The position numbers and the translations under genes are program-made. Shown here one piece after another: positions 10,229-61,655 of a DNA stretch of 64,000 bases. Within the stretch, counting starts at the first letter, position 1; each line of letters opens with the position of its first letter. Below the pieces are notes generated by a model, which was not told where the DNA came from, searched no databases, and was given only the letters and a program-made list of their open reading frames with translations. This DNA comes from a virus, in the IMG/VR virus record IMGVR_UViG_3300031997_000620, positions 1 to 64,000 of that record; one strand, written 5' to 3'.

Positions 10229-11661
10229 AAATAGCCTTTGATAATATCTCTGCTGCCTTCGCTCCTGACAATGCACAGGATGCTAAGGCTTTAGAGAAGC
10301 TTAAGAAAGAGTTCGACATCTTCCTAGAGACAGCTATTCATATGCCCCAGTATAAGTTATTCAAGCGAACGGGAGGAAAGGCAGGATGGAATGGCAGGGT
10401 AACTATGATGCAGCACGGCAAGATCCCAACGGGACTGGTTCCTTACGCATGTGAAAGGCTGAAGTTACTTAACTGTCAAACTGAACTGATTGATAAGCGA
10501 AACCTTAAGTTCCTAAGCCTGGGTAAGATGCCAGACATGCTAAGAGATTATCAGAAGGAAGCCGTCAAAGCTGCCTTCGGAAACATGCTAGGTACAGTCT
10601 GGTGGCCGAGAGGCGTCATCGAAATCGCCACAGGCGGAGGAAAGACTCTAACCGCTGGTGCGATGATTACTATGGCAGATGTTCCCACAGCCTTCGTTGT
10701 ACACCGTGAGCATCTATTAGATCAAACAATTGCAGAATTCAAGAAGCTAGGCATTGATGCGGGAAGAGTAAGTGCAGGAGTATGTGAGCCTAAGAGGGTT
10801 ACTGTTGCATCGGTTCAGACTCTTCACTCCGCTAAAAAAGCACAAGACTGGGACCGTCTAGGATGGGTCAATGATGTGGAGCAGCTATTCTACGATGAAG
10901 CACATACTTTAGCCAGCAAGATTGACTCTGTAAATACTTTCGCTGGTGTGTGTAATCTATTCAGTAGTGCATATATGCGATGGGCACTTACTGGCACAGC
11001 GTTCCGTAAGGATAAGTTTTCAAACTGGATTTTGGAGGGAGTGGCCGGGCCGGTCATATATGCCATACGAAGCGAGAAATTAATTGAGGAAGGGCACCTA
11101 TCTCCCCCCAACATTAAGATGATCGAGGTGAGAGCAGATTGGCAAACACCCAATAGGTGGCCGACATGCTACGAGCACGGTATCATGCTAAACAAAGAAA
11201 GAAATATGCACATTGTCAACGAGGCAGCAACATTACCTACTCCCTGCATTATCATGGTAGACCAAATAGGGCATGGAGATCTTATCCAAGGATTAATGCT
11301 GAAACATTTGATGCGTGAGGTACCTTTCGTTAGAGGGGACACTTCCAAAGAGGAAAGGCTCCAATGGATTCAAGCATGTAAGGATGGCAAGGTTCCTTTC
11401 ATGATCACTTCAACAATCTTTGACGAAGGGCTGGACATTCCCAACCTAAGAAGCATTATCCTAGCTGGAGGAAAGAAGAGCGAGATCAGATCTATCCAAA
11501 GGTTAGGGAGAGGATTACGACGTGCAGTTGGTAAGGTCGCAGTTGAGGTAGTAGACTTTTATGATTTAAACCCCAAGATATTAGAGAAGCACTCCAAACT
11601 ACGCCTAGCTACATGGACAGACGAAGGCTTCAACGTAAACATTATAAAAGTAGGGGTATAA
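10225..11661 (+). CDS. superfamily 2 DNA helicase (UvsW-like)
   Basis: LRDYQ, ATGGGKT, DEAH, TGT, EGLDIP, QRLGRGLR. Confidence 0.92.
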   Translation: MKIAFDNISAAFAPDNAQDAKALEKLKKEFDIFLETAIHMPQYKLFKRTGGKAGWNGRVTMMQHGKIPTGLVPYACERLKLLNCQTELIDKRNLKFLSLGKMPDMLRDYQKEAVKAAFGNMLGTVWWPRGVIEIATGGGKTLTAGAMITMADVPTAFVVHREHLLDQTIAEFKKLGIDAGRVSAGVCEPKRVTVASVQTLHSAKKAQDWDRLGWVNDVEQLFYDEAHTLASKIDSVNTFAGVCNLFSSAYMRWALTGTAFRKDKFSNWILEGVAGPVIYAIRSEKLIEEGHLSPPNIKMIEVRADWQTPNRWPTCYEHGIMLNKERNMHIVNEAATLPTPCIIMVDQIGHGDLIQGLMLKHLMREVPFVRGDTSKEERLQWIQACKDGKVPFMITSTIFDEGLDIPNLRSIILAGGKKSEIRSIQRLGRGLRRAVGKVAVEVVDFYDLNPKILEKHSKLRLATWTDEGFNVNIIKVGV

Positions 11662-13127
11662 TGGAATCAAAGTTTGACGAAATTGTATTCCTCTACTCTC
11701 TACTATTGAGAGAGGAGGATTGCAAGAAGTTTTGTGCATCGTACCATGAAGACTGGTTCGATCGCGCCGAGTGTGGTTATGTCTTTCAGGAAATGAGGCA
11801 CTTCCTCAAGAAGCACTTACTCCCTCCCAGCGTCAAGATATTGAGGGTGATCTTTAAACAAAAGGACGCAATGATCTATGAGGCCAGAGTCAAGGAAGTC
11901 TTAGACGAGATCGAGAATTATGATAAAAACGTAGACAAGGCCGAGATCGCCTGGACTTTGGACAAGGCACAGGACGTGGCAACGGTAAGGGCTTTTAAAC
12001 AAATGACAGAGGATGTTGGCGTACAACGGGCGATCGAAGAGGCAGACGGGGCAGAGATCCTGAAGCAGATTAACACGCTACAGAGGCGCTTCGAGAGCAC
12101 CACAGACCGCAAAACGATGAACCTCCGAGAAGCAGTAGAGTCTCTTGTGAAGTCTGATGGGTTTACTCCTATGCTTCAGAGAGTGCCTACAGGAATTGAT
12201 ATTATTGATATCTGGTGTGGTGGAGGGTTAAGGCCGAAACAACTAGGGATTATCGTCGGAGTCACAGGCCACGGTAAGAGTGCAACATTGATAAACATTG
12301 CAGATAGAATGAGTCGCAATGAGGATAGAAAGGTTTGGCTAGTAACAAATGAGTTAAGCTTGTACGAAACGACAGAGCGAATGCTGTCTAGGTTAAGTGG
12401 AGTTGGCCTGACTGATATTATTGATGCCCCGGCTATGGGCCTGGGCAAATTGAGTCGCCAGTGGAAGATGAATCGGCTCGATAACAAGTTCTTCATCACT
12501 GAATACGTCCGACCGCCCATTTCAGCAGCCGACATCGAAGATGAAATGATTAGGAATCGAAATCTTTATGGCTTCATGCCCGAAGTGATTGTGCTCGACT
12601 TCATGGAACGCATGAAGCCTGACATGAGCAGGGGAAGACCAAAGATTGATAATGAGTGGTCGAACATGCAATTCATTGCCCAAGACCTAGTAAGTTTGGC
12701 GAAGCGTCACAACATTATCATCTGGACTGCGGTACAGACTAATCGTGGAGGAGCGTCAGCAGAAGAGCTTGACCTAACCCACGTTCAATCTTCTATTCGA
12801 CATATTCAGGAAGCTACAGCATGTATCGCCTTGAAGCAAAGGAAGATCGTAGATGGGGATAAGACAGGTAAAGTAGGAATCCAGTTTTTCAATCTCAAGC
12901 AACGACAGAGCAAGCTTAGCTTCGACTCTGTAATCCTTGAGGCAGATTTGAGCAGAATGAACATAACAAATGATGTTGCACAAGTTCTTGCAACAGATCA
13001 GGTGGACAATTCAGGATCGGCAACGCCCTCGGGCACGCCTACAGTCCAGCATGCGGCTACCACATCTTCAGGCATGACAGCGCAGCAGCGTAAAAACAGT
13101 AAGGGGAAGTACCAAGGGAGAAAGTAA
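11661..13127 (+). CDS. DnaB-like replicative helicase
   Basis: PTG..ID, Walker A GVTGHGKS, VTNE, VIVLD, WTAVQTNR. Confidence 0.88.
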   Translation: MESKFDEIVFLYSLLLREEDCKKFCASYHEDWFDRAECGYVFQEMRHFLKKHLLPPSVKILRVIFKQKDAMIYEARVKEVLDEIENYDKNVDKAEIAWTLDKAQDVATVRAFKQMTEDVGVQRAIEEADGAEILKQINTLQRRFESTTDRKTMNLREAVESLVKSDGFTPMLQRVPTGIDIIDIWCGGGLRPKQLGIIVGVTGHGKSATLINIADRMSRNEDRKVWLVTNELSLYETTERMLSRLSGVGLTDIIDAPAMGLGKLSRQWKMNRLDNKFFITEYVRPPISAADIEDEMIRNRNLYGFMPEVIVLDFMERMKPDMSRGRPKIDNEWSNMQFIAQDLVSLAKRHNIIIWTAVQTNRGGASAEELDLTHVQSSIRHIQEATACIALKQRKIVDGDKTGKVGIQFFNLKQRQSKLSFDSVILEADLSRMNITNDVAQVLATDQVDNSGSATPSGTPTVQHAATTSSGMTAQQRKNSKGKYQGRK

Positions 13128-53019: not shown

Positions 53020-53718
53020 CTAACTGTCCCTGTAATGTGGAACAAACGGCACAATCCCTTGCTGTGACGTAATCCGATCATCAATATACCTAAGCCACTT
53101 AATCTCCCACTCACTTCTCCAAGTCATGAACGTTCTCTGGAGCCCTGCCTCCTGAAGCTCCTCTGCGTGCATCAGTCCAACAACGGTATCTAGTACTAAC
53201 AGCTCGTCAAAGATTTCAGGGAAGTCCGGATGTAGGACATCTCCATCATCAACAATCTCTGTGGGAATACCATTGTACTCCATCCTGAGTCCCTGTGATA
53301 CTGTGATCTGGGGGGCGGGCTCTAGCACAAACCCACCGCTAATCGGGCGGAAGTGGCAGTAGTAAGAGTCCTGTCCGTAGGCACCCGAAACCGGGTTGCT
53401 CTCGTATCGCCGCTCATATCGTTGAATCGGTGACACCCTGCCATCAGCCCGGACAAGTTCCAGCTTTAGCAAGCGGGTGAACCCCGGAGGCCACTCGTAT
53501 CTAGCTTTGAGGGCTTCAATATCTCGGAAGGACACATTCTGAAAGTGTCCCTCATGAGCTAGGTGCAGTTCCGTACAGCGCAGCCGATATTGCGAATTTA
53601 GAACCTGTCGAATGAAGGCGTTATCCCAATGTGAGACAGCTTCGTCGGGCTGTTTGATGTATCTGCGAGTACGGATAATTAGCTGACCTACTGTACGCGC
53701 AAGCTGGGCTGTAGCCAT
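53020..53718 (-). CDS. head-tail adaptor / tail tubular protein A-like
   Basis: L...R..I...W, Y.WP, L.PAP, P..F.ELLV pattern; position. Confidence 0.7.
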   Translation of the reverse strand: MATAQLARTVGQLIIRTRRYIKQPDEAVSHWDNAFIRQVLNSQYRLRCTELHLAHEGHFQNVSFRDIEALKARYEWPPGFTRLLKLELVRADGRVSPIQRYERRYESNPVSGAYGQDSYYCHFRPISGGFVLEPAPQITVSQGLRMEYNGIPTEIVDDGDVLHPDFPEIFDELLVLDTVVGLMHAEELQEAGLQRTFMTWRSEWEIKWLRYIDDRITSQQGIVPFVPHYRDS

Positions 53719-53720
53719 TC

Positions 53721-54236
53721 TTACTCCTCTAGCGCCTTAATGCGCGCAGTCCATCCCCGTCCAAATCGTACAGCTCCTCTAATTCTCTTTACTCTTACTT
53801 CCCGGTTTGCATTATACCTTTTAGCTAAACTGTCCTCTCCATGCTCGGCTGTATAATCAAGCACCGATTGAATAGTCTTGGCCCCCATGTTTCCATCCGG
53901 TTTGTTTCCTAAGATTCTCTGAAGAGACTTAACAGCCGTAGATTGTCCCGACAAGACAGCACTGTCCATAACCGTCTTACCAACTGCACGCGGAAGCTGC
54001 TCGCCTTGGATCTTGTTCCAGTATTCTCTTTCGTAGATCTTTGTAGCGTCTTCTTGAGCTAGGTTTTTGACATCTACGTCAGGGAAGGTGTTTTTGGAAA
54101 TGCCAAACTTCGTTTCCCCTCCATACTTTTTCGGGTAATCAACAAGCTGGTCCGTCTCGTGTTTGTAGACGTGCTGAAGCGCCTCTACAAACTTAGGCTT
54201 CTCGAACGGGTTTCGCTTTTTCTTCTCTTCAGCCAC
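53721..54236 (-). CDS. glycoside hydrolase family 108 lysozyme
   Basis: HE...GGETKFGIS, IY...YW, D.AV.SG, LQRILG..DG..G..T, FGRGW..R. Confidence 0.85.
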   Translation of the reverse strand: MAEEKKKRNPFEKPKFVEALQHVYKHETDQLVDYPKKYGGETKFGISKNTFPDVDVKNLAQEDATKIYEREYWNKIQGEQLPRAVGKTVMDSAVLSGQSTAVKSLQRILGNKPDGNMGAKTIQSVLDYTAEHGEDSLAKRYNANREVRVKRIRGAVRFGRGWTARIKALEE

Positions 54237-55444: not shown

Positions 55445-55813
55445 TTATGCTAGTGATTCAACGTCGCGGGCGCCATCCCCTACTGCGAAGAAGGTTAGCA
55501 CGGGGTTATCTCCAGCAGCAGCCTGGGTGGCAGCAGTTTTAAAGACGACAACTTCATTTGCAGTTGACTGCCAAATAACCGAAGCTTCTACGGCGGTGAC
55601 TTCCGCACCAGTGAGTTGCTTAATTGTAAAGCTAACATGGTCGATCGTAGTTAGACCCAGATCGTTCGGAGACACGGGCTCTCCACCAACCGTATACGGA
55701 GCCATTGTGATAATGCCCCATGTCTGCGTCTTGCCCTGCTTCGGACTGCCTGAAGTATTGAAGCCCGGACCCGGAAGATACGAGCGCCCTAGAATCTGTA
55801 CTGTTTTTGCCAT
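55445..55813 (-). CDS. capsid decoration / head-fibre-like protein
   Basis: Y.VGGE...LGL motif; late promoter motif upstream. Confidence 0.55.
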   Translation of the reverse strand: MAKTVQILGRSYLPGPGFNTSGSPKQGKTQTWGIITMAPYTVGGEPVSPNDLGLTTIDHVSFTIKQLTGAEVTAVEASVIWQSTANEVVVFKTAATQAAAGDNPVLTFFAVGDGARDVESLA

Positions 55814-55899
55814 TATGTTTTCCTTTTCTTTAGGAGCCGCGTTCCAAGTAGATTGCGGTCTTTCCTATTGTTTATTTTATGATGCAGGCATTCTCCGCC

Positions 55900-55912
55900 C
55901 TATTAAATTATC
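55900..55912 (-). promoter_or_regulatory. late promoter motif GATAATTWAATAG
   Basis: Repeated motif immediately after a terminator. Confidence 0.7.
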
Positions 55913-55926
55913 TCAATTTATTCAAC

Positions 55927-55962
55927 AAAAAAGAACCCCAAGACGATGCCCTGGGGTTCTTT
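55927..55962 (-). terminator. rho-independent terminator
   Basis: AAGAACCCCA / TGGGGTTCTT stem plus U-tract on the - strand. Confidence 0.8.
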
Positions 55963-55993
55963 AGATGCCTATCTGACGATAGGACTTGGAGAG

Positions 55994-56105
55994 CCGATGG
56001 TTATTCCGATTGGTTACGGAGCACTTTGAGGAGTGACTTACTGGATTTAAAATCATAATACCGACTGGTTACGGAGCACTTCCTCAAGTGACTAACTGAT
56101 TATAA
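55994..56105 (-). repeat. tandem 55-nt-period repeat, candidate structured RNA
   Basis: CCGAYTGGTTACGGAGCACTT-N5-AGTGACT at 56006 and 56061, plus a partial CCGATGGTTA at 55994. Confidence 0.8.
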
Positions 56106-56119
56106 TGTGACTCTCTCTA

Positions 56120-56410
56120 CTATTCTGCGCCGTAGTTAATCATTCCGCCATGATACGAGACAACAATAATATCTTGTCCAACCGTACCATTATCAATGTT
56201 AAGCACATTTGCTTTTGCGCCACCACCGAGATAGAAACCTAGGGCCTTTCTCGTTGCCTGCGTACCACCCATCGGTACCGCATCTCGGGCCGGAGCCGGT
56301 AGAACAAGATGATCGCTAGTAGCTGTTGCAATGCGAACACGAGTAATACCAATCTGCTCGCCAGTCTTAAGGTCAACGAAAGTTTGACCTAGGGGTAGAA
56401 TCTTAGCCAT
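56120..56410 (-). CDS. small virion protein (decoration-like)
   Basis: AGGAG RBS; late promoter motif upstream; beta-rich. Confidence 0.55.
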   Translation of the reverse strand: MAKILPLGQTFVDLKTGEQIGITRVRIATATSDHLVLPAPARDAVPMGGTQATRKALGFYLGGGAKANVLNIDNGTVGQDIIVVSYHGGMINYGAE

Positions 56411-56468: not shown

Positions 56469-56481
56469 CTATTTAATTATC
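56469..56481 (-). promoter_or_regulatory. late promoter motif GATAATTWAATAG
   Basis: Repeated motif. Confidence 0.7.
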
Positions 56482-56490
56482 TCTCTTCTC

Positions 56491-56778
56491 TTATTTATGT
56501 GCAAGTACCGACGCACGGAAATGCGGTCTTTCTGCCTCTTCTAAGGTTTTAAACTTTTTTGAATCCCTGAATCCTTTATGGTACCCATCTTCAAACCCTT
56601 GGGCATACTCTTCAGAGGGAACAAAGATGTGCTTGTGAAGTATAGACGTTTTGATTCGGCTGATGGTGCTAGCATCTACTTGAAAATGCTGAGCTATTCG
56701 CTTGTTGGGGGTTCCTACTTTTAGGAGTTTCTTTATTGTGAAAACATCTTCGTCATTGAGTTTTTTCATAAAGCTCAA
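56491..56778 (-). CDS. HTH protein
   Basis: KL.DEDV..IK...IAQHFQVDASTISRIK. Confidence 0.7.
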   Translation of the reverse strand: MSFMKKLNDEDVFTIKKLLKVGTPNKRIAQHFQVDASTISRIKTSILHKHIFVPSEEYAQGFEDGYHKGFRDSKKFKTLEEAERPHFRASVLAHK

Positions 56779-57077
56779 AAAAAGGCACTCTCTTAACGAT
56801 TGCCTTGGTAAAGTTTTTGGGGTTATCTTTTACATCTTGAAGTACCCATTCTACGTTATTTTTATAATCATAAATGCTAACTTTTGAGGTGCGGGTTATA
56901 ACCACGGTAAATCTACTTGTTCTATAAATAACATTATCTTGTCTTGAATTAAATAGGTCTGACAAGATTGATTTCTTTAAGGAATCTCGCATGACTTTTG
57001 CCCAATGTTGCAAACGGGCATCACTAAAGTTTCCCGCTGGCATCTGAACACTCATGCTATACTTCTTTATGTTTATC

Positions 57078-57455
57078 TTACTTGACATTGGTGTCTGATA
57101 TCTTTGCTGCAAAGAGGTGAAAGTCCATGTTCATCTTAAGGACAAACTCTTCGACCTTATCGATACAGGCCATTGCATCTTTATGGCACTCAATCAAAAA
57201 CTCGTCTGTGGATTGAGGGACTGCTCCTGTTCTGGGATTTCCAGATGATATGAACCGATTTACCATATAATCCGTGGGGTACTTTTCTCGGGCGATTTCG
57301 AGTTCCGCACATACCCCCAAGTGCTTCCAAGGCTGATGATCGGGAAATTCAAAATAGACATCAATCGCCAAATCGTATAGCTCGTCGTCTAGCTGGAAGT
57401 AATACTTACAGCCTTTGTATTCAAACTTTTTACTCGTCAGCGGGGGTTTCGGCAA
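57078..57455 (-). CDS. hypothetical protein (first gene of an inserted cassette)
   Basis: GAGGAGG RBS; own promoter. Confidence 0.55.
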   Translation of the reverse strand: MPKPPLTSKKFEYKGCKYYFQLDDELYDLAIDVYFEFPDHQPWKHLGVCAELEIAREKYPTDYMVNRFISSGNPRTGAVPQSTDEFLIECHKDAMACIDKVEEFVLKMNMDFHLFAAKISDTNVK

Positions 57456-57562: not shown

Positions 57563-58774
57563 CTAGAAGGTGGGCTGGCTTAGGCCGGTGATCTTCGCAG
57601 TCTGGTTGATGTACCGGGCTACGTTTTCGCCGTAATACTTGAGCAGGGTCGTGAATGCGTCCTGGCCCGGGAGCCATGCCATATTCACGCGCTCGTCAAT
57701 CGAGAGCGGGCGAACAACGCCGCGCTCGATAGCGCCGAGGTTTAGGAAGTAAACCACGGCCGGATCGGCTGCCCAGCTTAGGAGCCACGGGCGACCTTCG
57801 AAGGTCGTCAGCTCTTGCTGAGCCCCTAGGTCTAGACGCATGTCATTGAAGCGCCGGAAGCCTAGGGAGATCTCGGTGTAACGATCGAACTGTTCGTAGT
57901 TGCTTAGCATTACGAACTGATCGACGTTACCGACTGCCGTCTGAACCAAGAGGCGGCGTCTGATGCGGCGGAGTAGAGACTCATCGAGAGCCGTACTGCC
58001 CGCTGCAATTACCGAGGACTGAAGAACCGGGAAACTGGTTCGGCTTAGGTTATAGATCGTTCCAGTGCTACTCACAATAGCCGGAAGACCTAGTGCAGTT
58101 ACGTCCGCGGGTGCAGAGACTTCACTCTGCTCCCCTGCCTTGTAAATGCCGTGTGAGGCGTTTACCGTGATGGCGCTAGAGACCGTAATCGTCGCCCCTG
58201 CGATGTCGCGGGCCAGGATTGTCACCGGACCTGCGGCACGAAGGCCAGTCGTGTTATCTAGGAAAACCACAACTTGCTGTTCACGGAAGGGACGGGCGTC
58301 AGTTACCGTAATTACAGTATCCGCAGTTTCCGTCGCGTTTACGTCCGCGAGCTTACCAGTACCATCGCTGCGAAGGAAAGTAACTTCCATATCGGCACCC
58401 GCACGGGTTACCGCCATAGAAATTGCATCCGTTACAGCGGACGCGAAGGCATCTTCGCCACCGCGCCGAGAAACGGCCTCCGCTAGACCCGAGAACGTTA
58501 CTACTCTGTAGTATTTCTTGGGCCGAACGCGGGCCTGCTTGATGCGCTCATTACCAGACGCCGGAAGAGTATTATCATCCGGAGCCCGCCAGCCACCACC
58601 CGACTCATTACCGTCGATACGAACGGGGAAGAACGCGCCATCGCCCGAGGGGACGAAGCGGTTATTCTCACGAAGCCGGGAGTAGATGGGAGCAGATAGT
58701 TGCTGCATCTGTGCGATAAAATCTACGATATATCGCCGGAGCAGCATGTCGCCGAGAGTTGCAAATGTATTCAT
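57563..58774 (-). CDS. major capsid protein (HK97 fold, with insertion domain)
   Basis: 403 aa; follows the scaffold; G.GKLA, GLPAI, N..AKI.G end; strong terminator; biased codon usage. Confidence 0.85.
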   Translation of the reverse strand: MNTFATLGDMLLRRYIVDFIAQMQQLSAPIYSRLRENNRFVPSGDGAFFPVRIDGNESGGGWRAPDDNTLPASGNERIKQARVRPKKYYRVVTFSGLAEAVSRRGGEDAFASAVTDAISMAVTRAGADMEVTFLRSDGTGKLADVNATETADTVITVTDARPFREQQVVVFLDNTTGLRAAGPVTILARDIAGATITVSSAITVNASHGIYKAGEQSEVSAPADVTALGLPAIVSSTGTIYNLSRTSFPVLQSSVIAAGSTALDESLLRRIRRRLLVQTAVGNVDQFVMLSNYEQFDRYTEISLGFRRFNDMRLDLGAQQELTTFEGRPWLLSWAADPAVVYFLNLGAIERGVVRPLSIDERVNMAWLPGQDAFTTLLKYYGENVARYINQTAKITGLSQPTF

Positions 58775-59958: not shown

Positions 59959-59991
59959 AAAAGAAAACCCCCCAGATCGTAACCTGGGGGG
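59959..59991 (-). terminator. rho-independent terminator
   Basis: CCCCCCAG / CTGGGGGG stem plus TTTTCTTTT. Confidence 0.8.
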
Positions 59992-60099
59992 GACCGATGA
60001 GCTTTCGCCCATCGGCGATGAAGAAAACCCCCGGGGAGCGTAGGGGGAGGAACTACACTTCTACCCGGGGGTACCCCGCCGCGGCGCGGGGATCAACTG

Positions 60100-60300
60100 C
60101 TACGAATGTAGCGTGGCGCGCTGCGCGGCGAGGAATGCAGCCAAAGCTGCTTCATCTTCCGGCGTGGGGTCTCGTCTTTCAGCTACTACAGCACGGAGCC
60201 TTTCAAGAAGGTCTTGAAAAACCGGGTCACTGTCATTCTTTAGCTTAGCGATGATAATCGCCATAATAGCGTCTAGAGCATATGTAATTAGAATTTCCAT
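60100..60300 (-). CDS. small hypothetical protein
   Basis: Hydrophobic N-terminus; RDPT.ED motif; coupled to the lipoprotein gene. Confidence 0.55.
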   Translation of the reverse strand: MEILITYALDAIMAIIIAKLKNDSDPVFQDLLERLRAVVAERRDPTPEDEAALAAFLAAQRATLHS

Positions 60301-60669
60301 TTAATTACCCCCTACCTTAATAAGCCCACGAGAGATCAACTGGGCACGAAGCTCATTAACAAAAAGGACAAAAAGATCCATCTTTGTTGATGCCTCTGAA
60401 ACATTTCCAGCTACCAATAGGTCGGTAACATCCTTTTCTACAGCTTGAACTTTTAGATCTGTATCCTGAAAGATCTTCACTACCTTCGGGTCAGCAGTCG
60501 GACTGGCCTTATACTGATTAGCAACTACCAAAAGGTTTGAATATTCTACACGAGCCTGAAAATACTTGCCCTTAACAGTGGGGGCTACCCCAATGCTACT
60601 TGTAGCACAGGCAATTGCAAACATTGCAATAAGTGCAGCTACACTTGTTCTAGTCTTTTTGTTTAACAT
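60301..60669 (-). CDS. lipoprotein
   Basis: Basic N-terminus, hydrophobic core, AIAC lipobox. Confidence 0.7.
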   Translation of the reverse strand: MLNKKTRTSVAALIAMFAIACATSSIGVAPTVKGKYFQARVEYSNLLVVANQYKASPTADPKVVKIFQDTDLKVQAVEKDVTDLLVAGNVSEASTKMDLFVLFVNELRAQLISRGLIKVGGN

Positions 60670-60689
60670 TAGTTCCTCCTTTAAAGGTT

Positions 60690-60702
60690 CTATTAAATTA
60701 TC
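60690..60702 (-). promoter_or_regulatory. late promoter motif GATAATTWAATAG
   Basis: Repeated motif; overlaps the stop of the upstream gene. Confidence 0.6.
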
Positions 60703-61655
60703 TTACTTTCTATGTAAGACTGTGAAAATTTGTCTAAAACTACTTGAACCACTTCTTGACGAATATGCCGATTGTCTTCTTCATATGGAGAGCCGTTCTG
60801 CCATTCTTTGATTATTTCATAAGCAGGCCAATAATAAACATCTGAATAGTTTATTCGCATAAGTTCATCGACTGCCACTCGCAAGATTGCTTTTGATACT
60901 GTATTTGCCGTTACACATGATACAGGTCTAAACGTTGCAACTAAAGGTACTGGGGAAAGGGTAAAAATAATCTTTGCAGTAGTGTTATTCGCTTTAATAG
61001 TTTGTACGACATGTTGTAAATTTTCTAAGTTCTCACTAACCGTAGAGACTCGAAACTCGTGAATCTCGGGATTAAACTGCTCCTTGGGGATACCCCTCCA
61101 AAATACTTCCTTAGTTACCTTATTAGACCAAACCTCAGAAAGTCCGAGAGTGAGAATAAAAACATCTGTCTTATCAAAAATTGCTCTAGTTTCTATTCGG
61201 TTGTCTTCTGTAGGTTCAACCCTTTCTGTTTTAGAATACCACAAAGATTCCTCAAAATTGCAATTGTTCCACGCCCAATCAAATTGCTGCCTAATCGCAA
61301 ATGTAGTATTGATTCCTTCTCCAAAATGAATAATGGGTAATGCTTTTGACTTTACAACAAATCGTTGTGTCTTATCCCTCAAATACTTACGGATATGCTG
61401 AGCAAAACAACTTCCAAAAGCCGTAACATAAGACGAGGCTGCAATTATCGGTGAAACCGGAGTCCACCCTTTAAGGATATATTTATTTATTGCATCCTCT
61501 TCTTTTAAGTTTACGAGGCTAGGAATAAAATTACAACTATCACCTCTAAACCAATCCATTCCAAGAATTCTAGACTTGTCCTCTCCTAGTTTATAACTAT
61601 AAGCAGCGTTGTTATCTAACATGTCTAATTCTTTTTTACTAAAAGACTTATCCAT
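60693..61655 (-). CDS. GSCFA-domain protein (SGNH-like)
   Basis: GSCFA, FILTLGLSEVW, TLSPVPL, SKAILR, YWPAYE, D.RH. Confidence 0.88.
   Translation of the reverse strand: MDKSFSKKELDMLDNNAAYSYKLGEDKSRILGMDWFRGDSCNFIPSLVNLKEEDAINKYILKGWTPVSPIIAASSYVTAFGSCFAQHIRKYLRDKTQRFVVKSKALPIIHFGEGINTTFAIRQQFDWAWNNCNFEESLWYSKTERVEPTEDNRIETRAIFDKTDVFILTLGLSEVWSNKVTKEVFWRGIPKEQFNPEIHEFRVSTVSENLENLQHVVQTIKANNTTAKIIFTLSPVPLVATFRPVSCVTANTVSKAILRVAVDELMRINYSDVYYWPAYEIIKEWQNGSPYEEDNRHIRQEVVQVVLDKFSQSYIESKII

What the first reader, a model, noticed from the sequence alone, without database searches (positions are those of the whole stretch)
55964..56118. Tandem repeat RNA with mutually complementary hairpin loops among the capsid genes
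Seen in sequence: on the transcribed (-) strand, between a stop codon and a terminator, two units 55 nt apart read CAGUWAGU-CACU[UGAGGA]AGUG-CU-CCG-UAACCAGU-CGG and ...CACU[CCUCAA]AGUG-CU-CCG-UAACCAAU-CGG. The units are nearly identical except in the loops, where UGAGG and CCUCA are exact complements. Unit 1 can be closed by AUUAUAAU/AUUAUGAU and the whole element by GAGAGUC/GGCUCUC. A third UAACCAUCGG follows. Inference: a selected kissing-loop interaction, either within one molecule or hand-in-hand between molecules. That would be conceptually like phi29 pRNA multimerisation, or else a tandem protein-binding or antitoxin-mimic RNA. I do not recognise it as a known family.
Basis: partly seen in the sequence, partly recalled or inferred. 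Interest (0 to 1): 0.75.

Follow-up and report, generated by a model that had tools for sequence, protein, structure and literature searches.

The report
Duplicated terminator remnant with flipped loop
The two look-alike hairpin units behind a small late phage gene are decayed tandem copies of that gene's own terminator region, and their matching loops are best explained by one tiny DNA inversion, not by a proven selected RNA contact.

Summary
On the - strand, between the stop codon of a 96-aa late gene and a strong terminator, two units lie 55 nt apart. Their hairpin loops differ by an in-place reverse complement of 5 nt (TGAGG/CCTCA).

The block matches no Rfam family and occurs once in the 83-kb genome. 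It is absent from 46 related phage loci. The one close relative I could fetch (L048, 86% identical neighbouring protein) goes straight from the stop codon to the terminator region.

The units are diverged copies of the adjacent small-hairpin-plus-terminator module. They share 28 of 55 ungapped identities in register, a level reached by 5 of 165,788 genome 55-mers. Unit 1 keeps the native orientation at the loop and unit 2 is flipped. An inversion inside one copy of a tandem duplicate makes the copies complementary automatically. The complementarity therefore needs no selection.

If transcribed, the RNA is predicted to pair unit 1 with unit 2 within one molecule. No homologue exists to test covariation, and no RNA data were found.

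Best reading: mutational by-product in a 3'UTR, possibly co-opted. A pRNA-like role is unsupported. Interest is low to moderate.

The parts
56469..56481 (-). Late promoter-like motif GATAATTAAATAG upstream of the 96-aa gene
   Evidence: 5 matches in the window, all on the - strand, against 0.18 expected. Sequence read.
56120..56410 (-). 96-aa late gene (p96) of unknown function. The element is its 3'UTR.
   Evidence: ORF. It has 10 homologues in the protein collection and homologues in 31 of 46 related loci. No Pfam, PHROG, PDB or Atlas match.
56109..56115 (-). 5' arm of closing helix P1 (GAGAGUC)
   Evidence: Pair probabilities 0.98-1.0 with 55989-55995.
56052..56106 (-). Module copy 1 (unit 1), a decayed paralogue of the native hairpin-terminator module
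   Evidence: 28 of 55 ungapped identities to 55983-55929. A level of 28 or more is reached by 5 of 165,788 genome 55-mers. Alignment A5.
56077..56090 (-). Unit 1 hairpin A, CACU-UGAGGA-AGUG
   Evidence: Local fold -4.4 kcal/mol.
56061..56074 (-). Unit 1 hairpin B, CCG-UAACCAGU-CGG
   Evidence: Pair probability about 0.56.
55997..56051 (-). Module copy 2 (unit 2)
   Evidence: 40 of 55 identical to copy 1 and 20 of 55 to the native module.
56022..56035 (-). Unit 2 hairpin A, CACU-CCUCAA-AGUG. The 5-nt core CCUCA is the in-place reverse complement of unit 1's UGAGG.
   Evidence: The core matches the native module at 0 of 5 positions as read and 3 of 5 after reverse complementing.
56006..56019 (-). 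Unit 2 hairpin B, CCG-UAACCAAU-CGG
   Evidence: Pair probability 0.99.
55994..56003 (-). Third, partial TAACCATCGG: a 12-13-nt micro-duplication that lengthens the last period from 55 to 68
55989..55995 (-). 3' arm of closing helix P1 (GGCUCUC). It overlaps the CTCCAAG stretch that L048 also has.
55968..55983 (-). Conserved small hairpin CCUAUC-GUCA-GAUAGG, the start of the native module
   Evidence: Present in L048 as CCUACC-GUCA-GGUAGG, with one compensatory pair change. Pair probability 0.96-1.0.
55930..55962 (-). Intrinsic terminator (15-pair stem and T run), the end of the native module
55900..55912 (-). Next late promoter-like motif, heading the following 122-aa gene

Best explanation
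The element is two decayed tandem copies of the 96-aa gene's own 3'-end module. That module is a small hairpin, a linker and an intrinsic terminator. The copies sit between the stop codon and the surviving functional copy.

After the last duplication, a 5-nt (equally a 7-nt) stretch in copy 2 was reverse-complemented in place, a micro-inversion of the template-switch kind. An inverted piece is by construction complementary to its uninverted paralogue. The two 'loops' therefore became complementary in one step, without selection for a kissing contact. A 12-13-nt micro-duplication (the third TAACCATCGG) is a further replication slip.

The block is most likely transcribed as part of the late p96 mRNA. 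There it is predicted to fold as one closed domain, helix P1 plus a long-range unit 1:unit 2 helix, ahead of the conserved hairpin and terminator. At most it acts as an extra cis-acting 3'UTR structure. No trans-acting or packaging role is indicated.

Shown: the anatomy, the paralogy to the native module, the orientation of the inversion, the absence from the one close relative, and the predicted fold.

Inferred: transcription, the template-switch mechanism, and neutrality.
For: (1) Paralogy. Copy 1 (56106-56052) against the native module (55983-55929) gives 28 of 55 ungapped identities. This is the best of 41 registers tried in the native region. A level of 28 or more is reached by 5 of 165,788 other genome 55-mers. 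Against L048's module the figure is 26 of 55. The four-way alignment A5 has 18 invariant columns. The offsets fit one period: 55, then 68 = 55 + the 13-nt micro-duplication.

(2) Orientation. At module positions 21-25 the native module reads TAAAG and copy 1 reads TGAGG (3 of 5). Copy 2 reads CCTCA (0 of 5, but 3 of 5 after reverse complementing).

(3) A single event suffices. Reverse-complementing TGAGG (or TTGAGGA) in place removes all 5 loop differences and leaves only the 2 non-loop differences.

(4) The block is dispensable. L048 (neighbouring protein 86% identical) runs from the stop codon directly into CTCCAAG, the small hairpin and the terminator.

(5) The block is an orphan.
- No Rfam match.
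- Single copy in the 83,233-bp genome.
- No blastn match in 46 related loci.
- A unit covariance model over 428,792 nt finds only the two units themselves, at 56 bits. The next hit scores 16 bits with E 0.66.
- Pattern scans of viral contigs found nothing.
- The genome-contig scan gave 1 hit, inside a high-GC coding region that lacks hairpin A.

(6) The individual hairpins are weak: -4.4, -2.4, -2.5 and -4.7 kcal/mol.

(7) Literature. Passages of PMC8794818 describe template switching that inverts hairpin loops and builds stems in one step.
Against: - The inversion is not symmetric about the CACT/AGTG stem. Reverse-complementing the whole 14-mer does not give unit 2 and is off by one base. The textbook stem-templated loop inversion therefore does not fit exactly.
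- Copy 2 against the native module is only 20 of 55. That level or higher is reached by 7,842 of 165,788 null 55-mers, or 4.7%. The paralogy rests mainly on copy 1.
- The copies are about 50% diverged from the native module, while window and L048 differ far less there. Either the first duplication is old and L048 lost it, or the copies changed fast. Fast change could mean selection for something new.
- Three C-to-G/T/G changes turned native AACCC into AAGTG, which pairs with CACTT. This creates hairpin A. Selection for structure would give the same pattern as a template switch.
- The predicted closed fold (P1 0.98-1.0, core pairs 0.66-1.0) is tidy for junk.
- Neutrality cannot be shown with a single sequence.
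Confidence: 0.6

Rival explanations
1. Co-opted cis-acting 3'UTR domain. The duplicated, remodelled module was kept because the closed P1 plus unit 1:unit 2 fold protects or tunes the abundant late p96 mRNA. It could act as an exonuclease barrier, a processing site, or a sink for the anti-Shine-Dalgarno-like CUCCU of unit 2.
For: - The element is predicted as one closed domain with high pair probabilities. The whole 3' region has z -4.5, terminator included.
- The unit has its own promoter motif and terminator.
- A second late unit of this phage has a structured 3'UTR with a perfect 10-nt complement of its own ribosome-binding site, read after lead e1-6126198. Structured, SD-related 3'UTRs may therefore be a theme in this phage.
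- Three substitutions created hairpin A.
Against: - The element is absent from the close relative, which keeps the gene, hairpin and terminator.
- The element alone has z of only -2.16.
- Unit 2's complement to the p96 Shine-Dalgarno sequence AAAGGAG is only 5 nt, which is generic.
- There are no homologues, so no covariation test is possible.
Confidence: 0.2
2. Trans-acting RNA, in one of two forms. Either it is a decoy or antitoxin mimic, by analogy with pseudo-ToxI of phage PhiTE. Or it is a late antisense regulator whose unit 1 loop pairs with the mRNA of the DnaB-like helicase, with unit 2 as a built-in mimic of that target.
For: - The architecture is tandem repeats, then a terminator, in an intergenic spot. 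PhiTE wild type carries 1.5 pseudo-ToxI repeats that expand by slippage (passages of PMC3475682).
- The longest exact matches of the element elsewhere in the genome are a 13-mer (unit 1 loop plus 3' arm) and a 12-mer. Both are antisense to the first 200 nt of the + strand 504-aa DnaB-like ORF, at 11798-11810 and 11696-11707.
- A pair of 12-mers or longer within 200 nt occurred in 6 of 2,000 shuffles.
Against: - The pair statistic was chosen after seeing the data. A single 13-mer occurs in 521 of 2,000 shuffles.
- There is no extended similarity.
- No match to any Rfam family, including at E up to 10.
- The repeats differ in the loop, whereas antitoxin units are near-identical.
- The gene after the terminator is a conserved structural-module gene, not a toxin.
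- The host is unknown, so no cognate toxin can be sought.
Confidence: 0.1
3. DNA-level protein-binding sites. The palindromic CACT-N6-AGTG half-sites, 55 bp apart, and the three TAACCA(N)TCGG motifs would be operators for a phage DNA-binding protein such as the 95-aa helix-turn-helix protein encoded just upstream.
For: - An HTH_38 protein is encoded at 56491-56778 (Pfam E 4e-7).
- The motifs are repeated.
- A symmetric dimer would not care about the orientation of the central bases.
Against: - L048 keeps the HTH gene region but lacks the sites.
- The motifs occur nowhere else in the genome.
- The sites lie inside a transcribed 3'UTR, 110-190 bp from the next promoter motif.
Confidence: 0.05

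Closest known systems
Template-switch (quasi-palindrome) mutations that invert hairpin loops and build stems in one step (Monttinen and Loytynoja 2022, PMC8794818; passages read)
   Same: - An in-place reverse complement of a short stretch flanked by an inverted repeat, with length kept.
- Several base changes arise at once.
- A stem arm (AAGTG) looks copied from the opposite arm (CACTT).
   Different: - The inversion here is off-centre by one base relative to the stem.
- It sits in one copy of a tandem duplicate. The visible result is therefore complementarity between copies, not a changed loop in a lineage.
- There is no phylogeny to time the event.
pseudo-ToxI repeats of Pectobacterium phage PhiTE, a type III antitoxin mimic (Blower et al. 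2012, PMC3475682; abstract and passages read)
   Same: A short tandem repeat array of non-coding sequence in a phage intergenic region, changed by replication slippage and transcribed during infection.
   Different: - PhiTE's repeats resemble a known 36-nt antitoxin unit. This element resembles nothing outside its own neighbouring terminator module.
- The units here are 55 nt long and differ in the loop.
- No toxin partner is known.
phi29-family packaging RNA (pRNA) (Hao and Kieft 2014, PMC4201828; abstract and passages read)
   Same: Two loops with 4-5 complementary bases in a phage RNA.
   Different: - pRNA is a free-standing RNA of about 120 nt or more. A three-way-junction scaffold displays its loops for contacts between molecules, and it binds the connector.
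- This element is a 3'UTR block with weak hairpins, predicted to pair within the molecule.
- It is missing in the nearest relative.
3'UTR anti-Shine-Dalgarno elements that pair with the 5'UTR of the same mRNA
   Same: Unit 2's loop carries CUCCU, which is complementary to AGGAG. The phage has another late 3'UTR with a 10-nt complement of its own ribosome-binding site.
   Different: For p96 the complementarity to its own Shine-Dalgarno sequence is only 5 nt. Unit 1 is by far the better partner for unit 2.

Membership tests
phi29-type pRNA | Match to the Rfam covariance model for phage pRNA | tested here: not met
   No Rfam family matched the element at gathering score or at E up to 10. That the library holds a pRNA model is recalled and was not checked.
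phi29-type pRNA | Free-standing RNA gene, not part of an mRNA | tested here: not met
   The element begins 2 nt after the p96 stop codon and has no promoter motif of its own. The promoter motif lies upstream of p96.
phi29-type pRNA | Rigid three-way-junction scaffold that forces loop contacts between molecules | tested here: inconclusive
   The nested ensemble pairs the two loop cores within one molecule (probability 0.66-1.0). Three-dimensional geometry cannot be judged with these tools.
phi29-type pRNA | Loop complementarity kept by covariation among relatives | not testable with these tools
Type III antitoxin or phage antitoxin mimic (ToxI / pseudo-ToxI) | Tandem, near-identical direct repeats ahead of a terminator | tested here: inconclusive
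   There are two copies, 40 of 55 identical. They lie ahead of a terminator, but they differ at the loop.
Type III antitoxin or phage antitoxin mimic (ToxI / pseudo-ToxI) | Sequence likeness to an antitoxin repeat of a host system | tested here: not met
   No Rfam match. The genome-contig scan with a 19-base unit pattern gave 1 hit, judged chance. The host is unknown, so this test is weak.
Type III antitoxin or phage antitoxin mimic (ToxI / pseudo-ToxI) | Cognate endoribonuclease toxin | not testable with these tools
   The host is unknown. The gene after the terminator is a conserved module gene found in most related loci.
Tandem duplicate of the native hairpin-terminator module | In-register sequence likeness to the adjacent module beyond chance | tested here: met
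   28 of 55 identities, a level reached by 5 of 165,788 null 55-mers. 26 of 55 to L048. Alignment A5. Copy 2 alone is weak at 20 of 55.
Tandem duplicate of the native hairpin-terminator module | Constant period linking the copies to the source | tested here: met
   The offsets are 55 and 68. The extra 13 nt is the micro-duplicated TAACCATCGG stretch.
Template-switch loop inversion | In-place reverse complement with length maintained, overlapping both stem halves | tested here: met
   Inverting TGAGG or TTGAGGA in place explains all the loop differences. The criteria are taken from PMC8794818.
Template-switch loop inversion | Symmetry about the stem axis | tested here: not met
   The reverse complement of the full 14-mer does not equal unit 2 and is off by one base.

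The most novel reading that the evidence does not exclude
The remodelled terminator copies are a newly born functional RNA. It would be a late-expressed 3'UTR domain whose unit 1 loop pairs with the 5' part of the phage's DnaB-like helicase mRNA to shut down an early gene. Unit 2 would act as a built-in target mimic that gates this activity. This would be de novo birth of a regulatory RNA from a duplicated terminator through micro-inversions.
Probability: 0.06. Interest if true: 0.7.

Novelty: new member of a known kind. Interest (0 to 1): 0.25.

Why it matters
As it stands, the finding is mainly a caution. Exact loop complementarity between tandem units looks like designed RNA architecture, but it can arise in one step when a short stretch of one copy is inverted. 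Complementarity inside a tandem duplicate is therefore not evidence of selection without covariation in relatives.

It is also a clean small example of how a terminator module can be duplicated and reshaped into a new closed RNA fold. This is the kind of raw material from which structured RNAs may be born. If relatives showed covarying loops, or if a discrete RNA were detected, the locus would become a dated case of such a birth in a phage 3'UTR.

Tried and rejected
Known RNA family: the Rfam gathering search of the whole window found only 3 tRNAs. The permissive search of 55800-56300 gave 9 weak hits, all driven by the terminator or on the wrong strand and all far below gathering score.

Homologues of the element:
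- blastn against 50,697 phage records, with the 241-nt and 5-kb queries: no match.
- Pattern scans of viral contigs: 0 hits.
- A scan for the conserved downstream leader, to fish for clade members: 0 hits.
- p96 as a single protein and as alignment A1 in viral contigs: no relative.
- Alignment A1 in metagenome contigs: 1 locus, L048.
- blastn of the element against 46 capsid-related loci: only chance matches of 19 nt or less, or low identity.
- Unit covariance model R1 over window plus 40 loci: nothing beyond the two units. I left out 7 of the 47 fetched loci (L010, L011, L013, L032, L039, L040, L041). They were duplicates or near-duplicates of loci that were included, as judged from identical rows.
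- Genome contigs pattern scan: 1 hit in a high-GC Actinomycetota MAG coding region without hairpin A, judged chance.
- The 59-aa + strand ORF over the element, as a way to find relatives through called proteins: no candidate.

Sequencing runs: 13 DNA runs were listed and no RNA holder was listed. I laid 4 of the 13 (X3-X6). X3 covers the whole element and X5 part of it, both with 0 differences. X4 and X6 have no contig over it. No variant of the element was seen.

Foreign-insert or MITE reading: the terminal inverted repeat is only 7 nt with one G-U, there is no target duplication, and the block is single-copy. Rejected in favour of local duplication.

Coding potential: two TAG stops in tandem follow p96. 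Only 27-31-aa ORFs without ribosome-binding sites overlap the element.

Genome-wide RNA duplex scan with the whole element: it was dominated by unrealistic long interior loops and was uninformative.

Function of p96: no Pfam or PHROG match, no PDB sequence match to profile A4, and no usable Atlas hit, with the Atlas model at pLDDT 0.37.

Nearest cultured capsid relative: Microbacterium phage Shocker, at only 29% identity.

Full report
CONTEXT. The window is the first 64 kb of an 83,233-bp uncultured virus contig. Its relatives reach about 120 kb. The late genes run on the - strand. The major head protein is at 57563-58774 (PHROG 14242, E 1.6e-18). An SU10-type adaptor is at 53020-53718 (Pfam PF24175), and an endolysin-like gene is at 53721-54236. 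The nearest cultured capsid relative is only 29% identical.

A 13-nt motif, GATAATTWAATAG, occurs 5 times, always on the - strand, against 0.18 expected. One copy sits 59 nt upstream of the 96-aa gene p96 (56410-56120). The next sits just after the terminator at 55962-55930. Thus p96, the element and the terminator form one compact late transcription unit. Transcription itself is inferred. No RNA run was listed.

- Two cores of 38 nt lie 55 nt apart.
- Each has hairpin A (CACU, a 6-nt loop, AGUG) and hairpin B (CCG, an 8-nt loop, CGG).
- A third TAACCATCGG follows.
- The outer helix GAGAGUC/GGCUCUC is present.
- The AUUAUAAU/AUUAUGAU pair is present.

The loops differ by an in-place reverse complement of TGAGG. 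Five of 7 core differences lie in the 6 loop positions (Fisher p 2.4e-4). Random hexaloops share a 5-nt complement in 0.38% of trials. An independently assembled contig from another sediment run is identical over 55819-56164.

WHAT IT IS NOT. No Rfam family matches. The block is single-copy in the genome. It has no relative in phage records, IMG/VR, the metagenome scan or the species genomes.

In 46 loci that share the capsid gene at 68-77% identity, 31 have a p96 homologue. The space behind it holds small ORFs, not this element.

The one close relative I could fetch is L048, whose p96 is 86% identical. It has the same upstream genes, the same small hairpin with one compensatory pair change, the same terminator and a 65-nt identical leader for the next gene. 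Yet it passes from the stop codon straight to CTCCAAG and the small hairpin. About 123 nt are missing.

WHERE IT CAME FROM. The block is not foreign. Copy 1 (56106-56052) aligns without gaps to the adjacent native module (55983-55929: small hairpin, linker, terminator) at 28 of 55 positions. Among 165,788 other 55-mers of the genome, only 5 reach 28. It also matches L048's module at 26 of 55. The best stretch, TCAGTTAGTCACTTGAGGAA against L048's TCAGGTAGGCACTTAAAGAA, is 16 of 20.

The spacing fits a tandem array. It is 55 nt from copy 1 to copy 2. It is 68 nt from copy 2 to the native module, and the extra 13 nt is the micro-duplicated TAACCATCGG stretch. Copy 2 is 40 of 55 identical to copy 1 but only 20 of 55 to the native module, which on its own is weak (4.7% of the null).

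At the five loop-core positions the native module reads TAAAG. Copy 1 reads TGAGG (3 of 5). Copy 2 reads CCTCA (0 of 5, but 3 of 5 once reverse-complemented). So copy 1 keeps the ancestral orientation and copy 2 was flipped after the last duplication.

Hairpin A itself arose in the copies. Native AACCC became AAGTG, the complement of the CACTT a few bases upstream.

WHY THIS MATTERS FOR THE INTERPRETATION. An inversion within one copy of a tandem duplicate makes that stretch complementary to its paralogue by construction. The pattern 'identical units, complementary loops' therefore needs one mutational event and no selection.

One-step loop inversions and stem-building by template switching are documented (PMC8794818, passages read). 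The fit is not perfect, because the inversion is off-centre by one base relative to the stem. I cannot exclude that selection kept the result.

With only 2 differences in the 32 other core positions, there has been too little time to see whether the loops would drift apart.

HOW THE RNA WOULD FOLD. The four local hairpins are weak, at -2.4 to -4.7 kcal/mol. In the nested ensemble of the whole 3'UTR:
- the local A hairpins have probability about 0;
- the loop cores pair with each other as part of a 13-pair, twice-bulged long-range helix (probability 0.66-1.0);
- P1 closes the block (0.98-1.0);
- the conserved hairpin and the terminator stay intact.

Forcing both local hairpins costs 4.5 kcal/mol before any kissing bonus. 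A 5-pair kiss would be worth roughly -7 kcal/mol by stacking alone. The tools cannot decide between a kissing contact and an extended helix. Either way the contact is within one molecule. The element alone is only modestly more stable than shuffles (z -2.16).

RIVALS.
- A co-opted cis-acting 3'UTR domain is the most serious rival. The fold is tidy. Another late unit of this phage carries a 10-nt complement of its own ribosome-binding site in a structured 3'UTR (read).
- A trans-acting role has only a post-hoc hint. The two longest exact matches of the element elsewhere (13 and 12 nt) are both antisense to the start of the DnaB-like helicase gene. Such a pair occurs in 6 of 2,000 shuffles, but a single 13-mer occurs in 521 of 2,000.
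- The antitoxin-mimic reading shares architecture with PhiTE's pseudo-ToxI (PMC3475682). It has no sequence or partner to support it.
- The pRNA reading has nothing beyond loop complementarity (PMC4201828).
- DNA operator sites are unlikely, because L048 keeps the neighbouring helix-turn-helix gene without the sites.

VERDICT. The sequence pattern is real, but its origin is ordinary. It is a tandemly duplicated, decayed terminator module with a micro-inversion, in a dispensable 3'UTR position. Function beyond that is unproven.

LIMITS.
- Only one close relative could be read.
- There are no RNA data.
- Supplements of papers were not seen, and none bears on a claim here.

Noticed in passing
window 46262, 55900, 56469, 59902, 60690 (- strand): The 13-nt motif GATAATTWAATAG occurs 5 times, all on the - strand and upstream of late genes, against 0.18 expected. 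It is probably the phage's late promoter. L048 carries the same motif at the homologous places.
   Followed up: partly
window 55815-55900 (- strand) and L048 1500-1600: The leader of the 122-aa gene is identical over about 65 nt between window and L048, although the flanking coding DNA is only about 85% identical. It is a strongly constrained 5'UTR of unknown role.
   Followed up: no
window 55968-55983 and L048 1432-1447: The small hairpin before the terminator keeps its pairing through a compensatory U-A to C-G change between window and L048.
   Followed up: partly
window 11696-11707 and 11798-11810: The element's two longest exact matches elsewhere in the genome (12 and 13 nt) lie on the - strand. 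They are antisense to the first 200 nt of the + strand DnaB-like helicase ORF at 11613-13127. This could be chance or a target site.
   Followed up: partly
window 59959-60704 (- strand): The late lipoprotein bicistron has a 3'UTR with several GC-rich hairpins. TAGTTCCTCC in one of them is the exact reverse complement of the unit's own ribosome-binding site, GGAGGAACTA.
   Followed up: partly
L036 760-2918: In this relative the capsid gene match is split (760-828 and 1722-2918). About 890 nt lie between the pieces, possibly an intron or a homing-endonuclease insertion in the major head gene.
   Followed up: no
L015, L035, L045, L029 and others: The 122-aa gene downstream of the element occurs as two or three tandem paralogues in several relatives. 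p96 is duplicated in L031, L032 and L037. Small head-module genes expand and contract in this phage group.
   Followed up: no
window 56491-57455 (- strand) and L048 95-1022: Three small ORFs, the last an HTH_38 protein, sit between the capsid gene and p96 in this clade. Most other relatives have only a 430-520-nt gap there.
   Followed up: no
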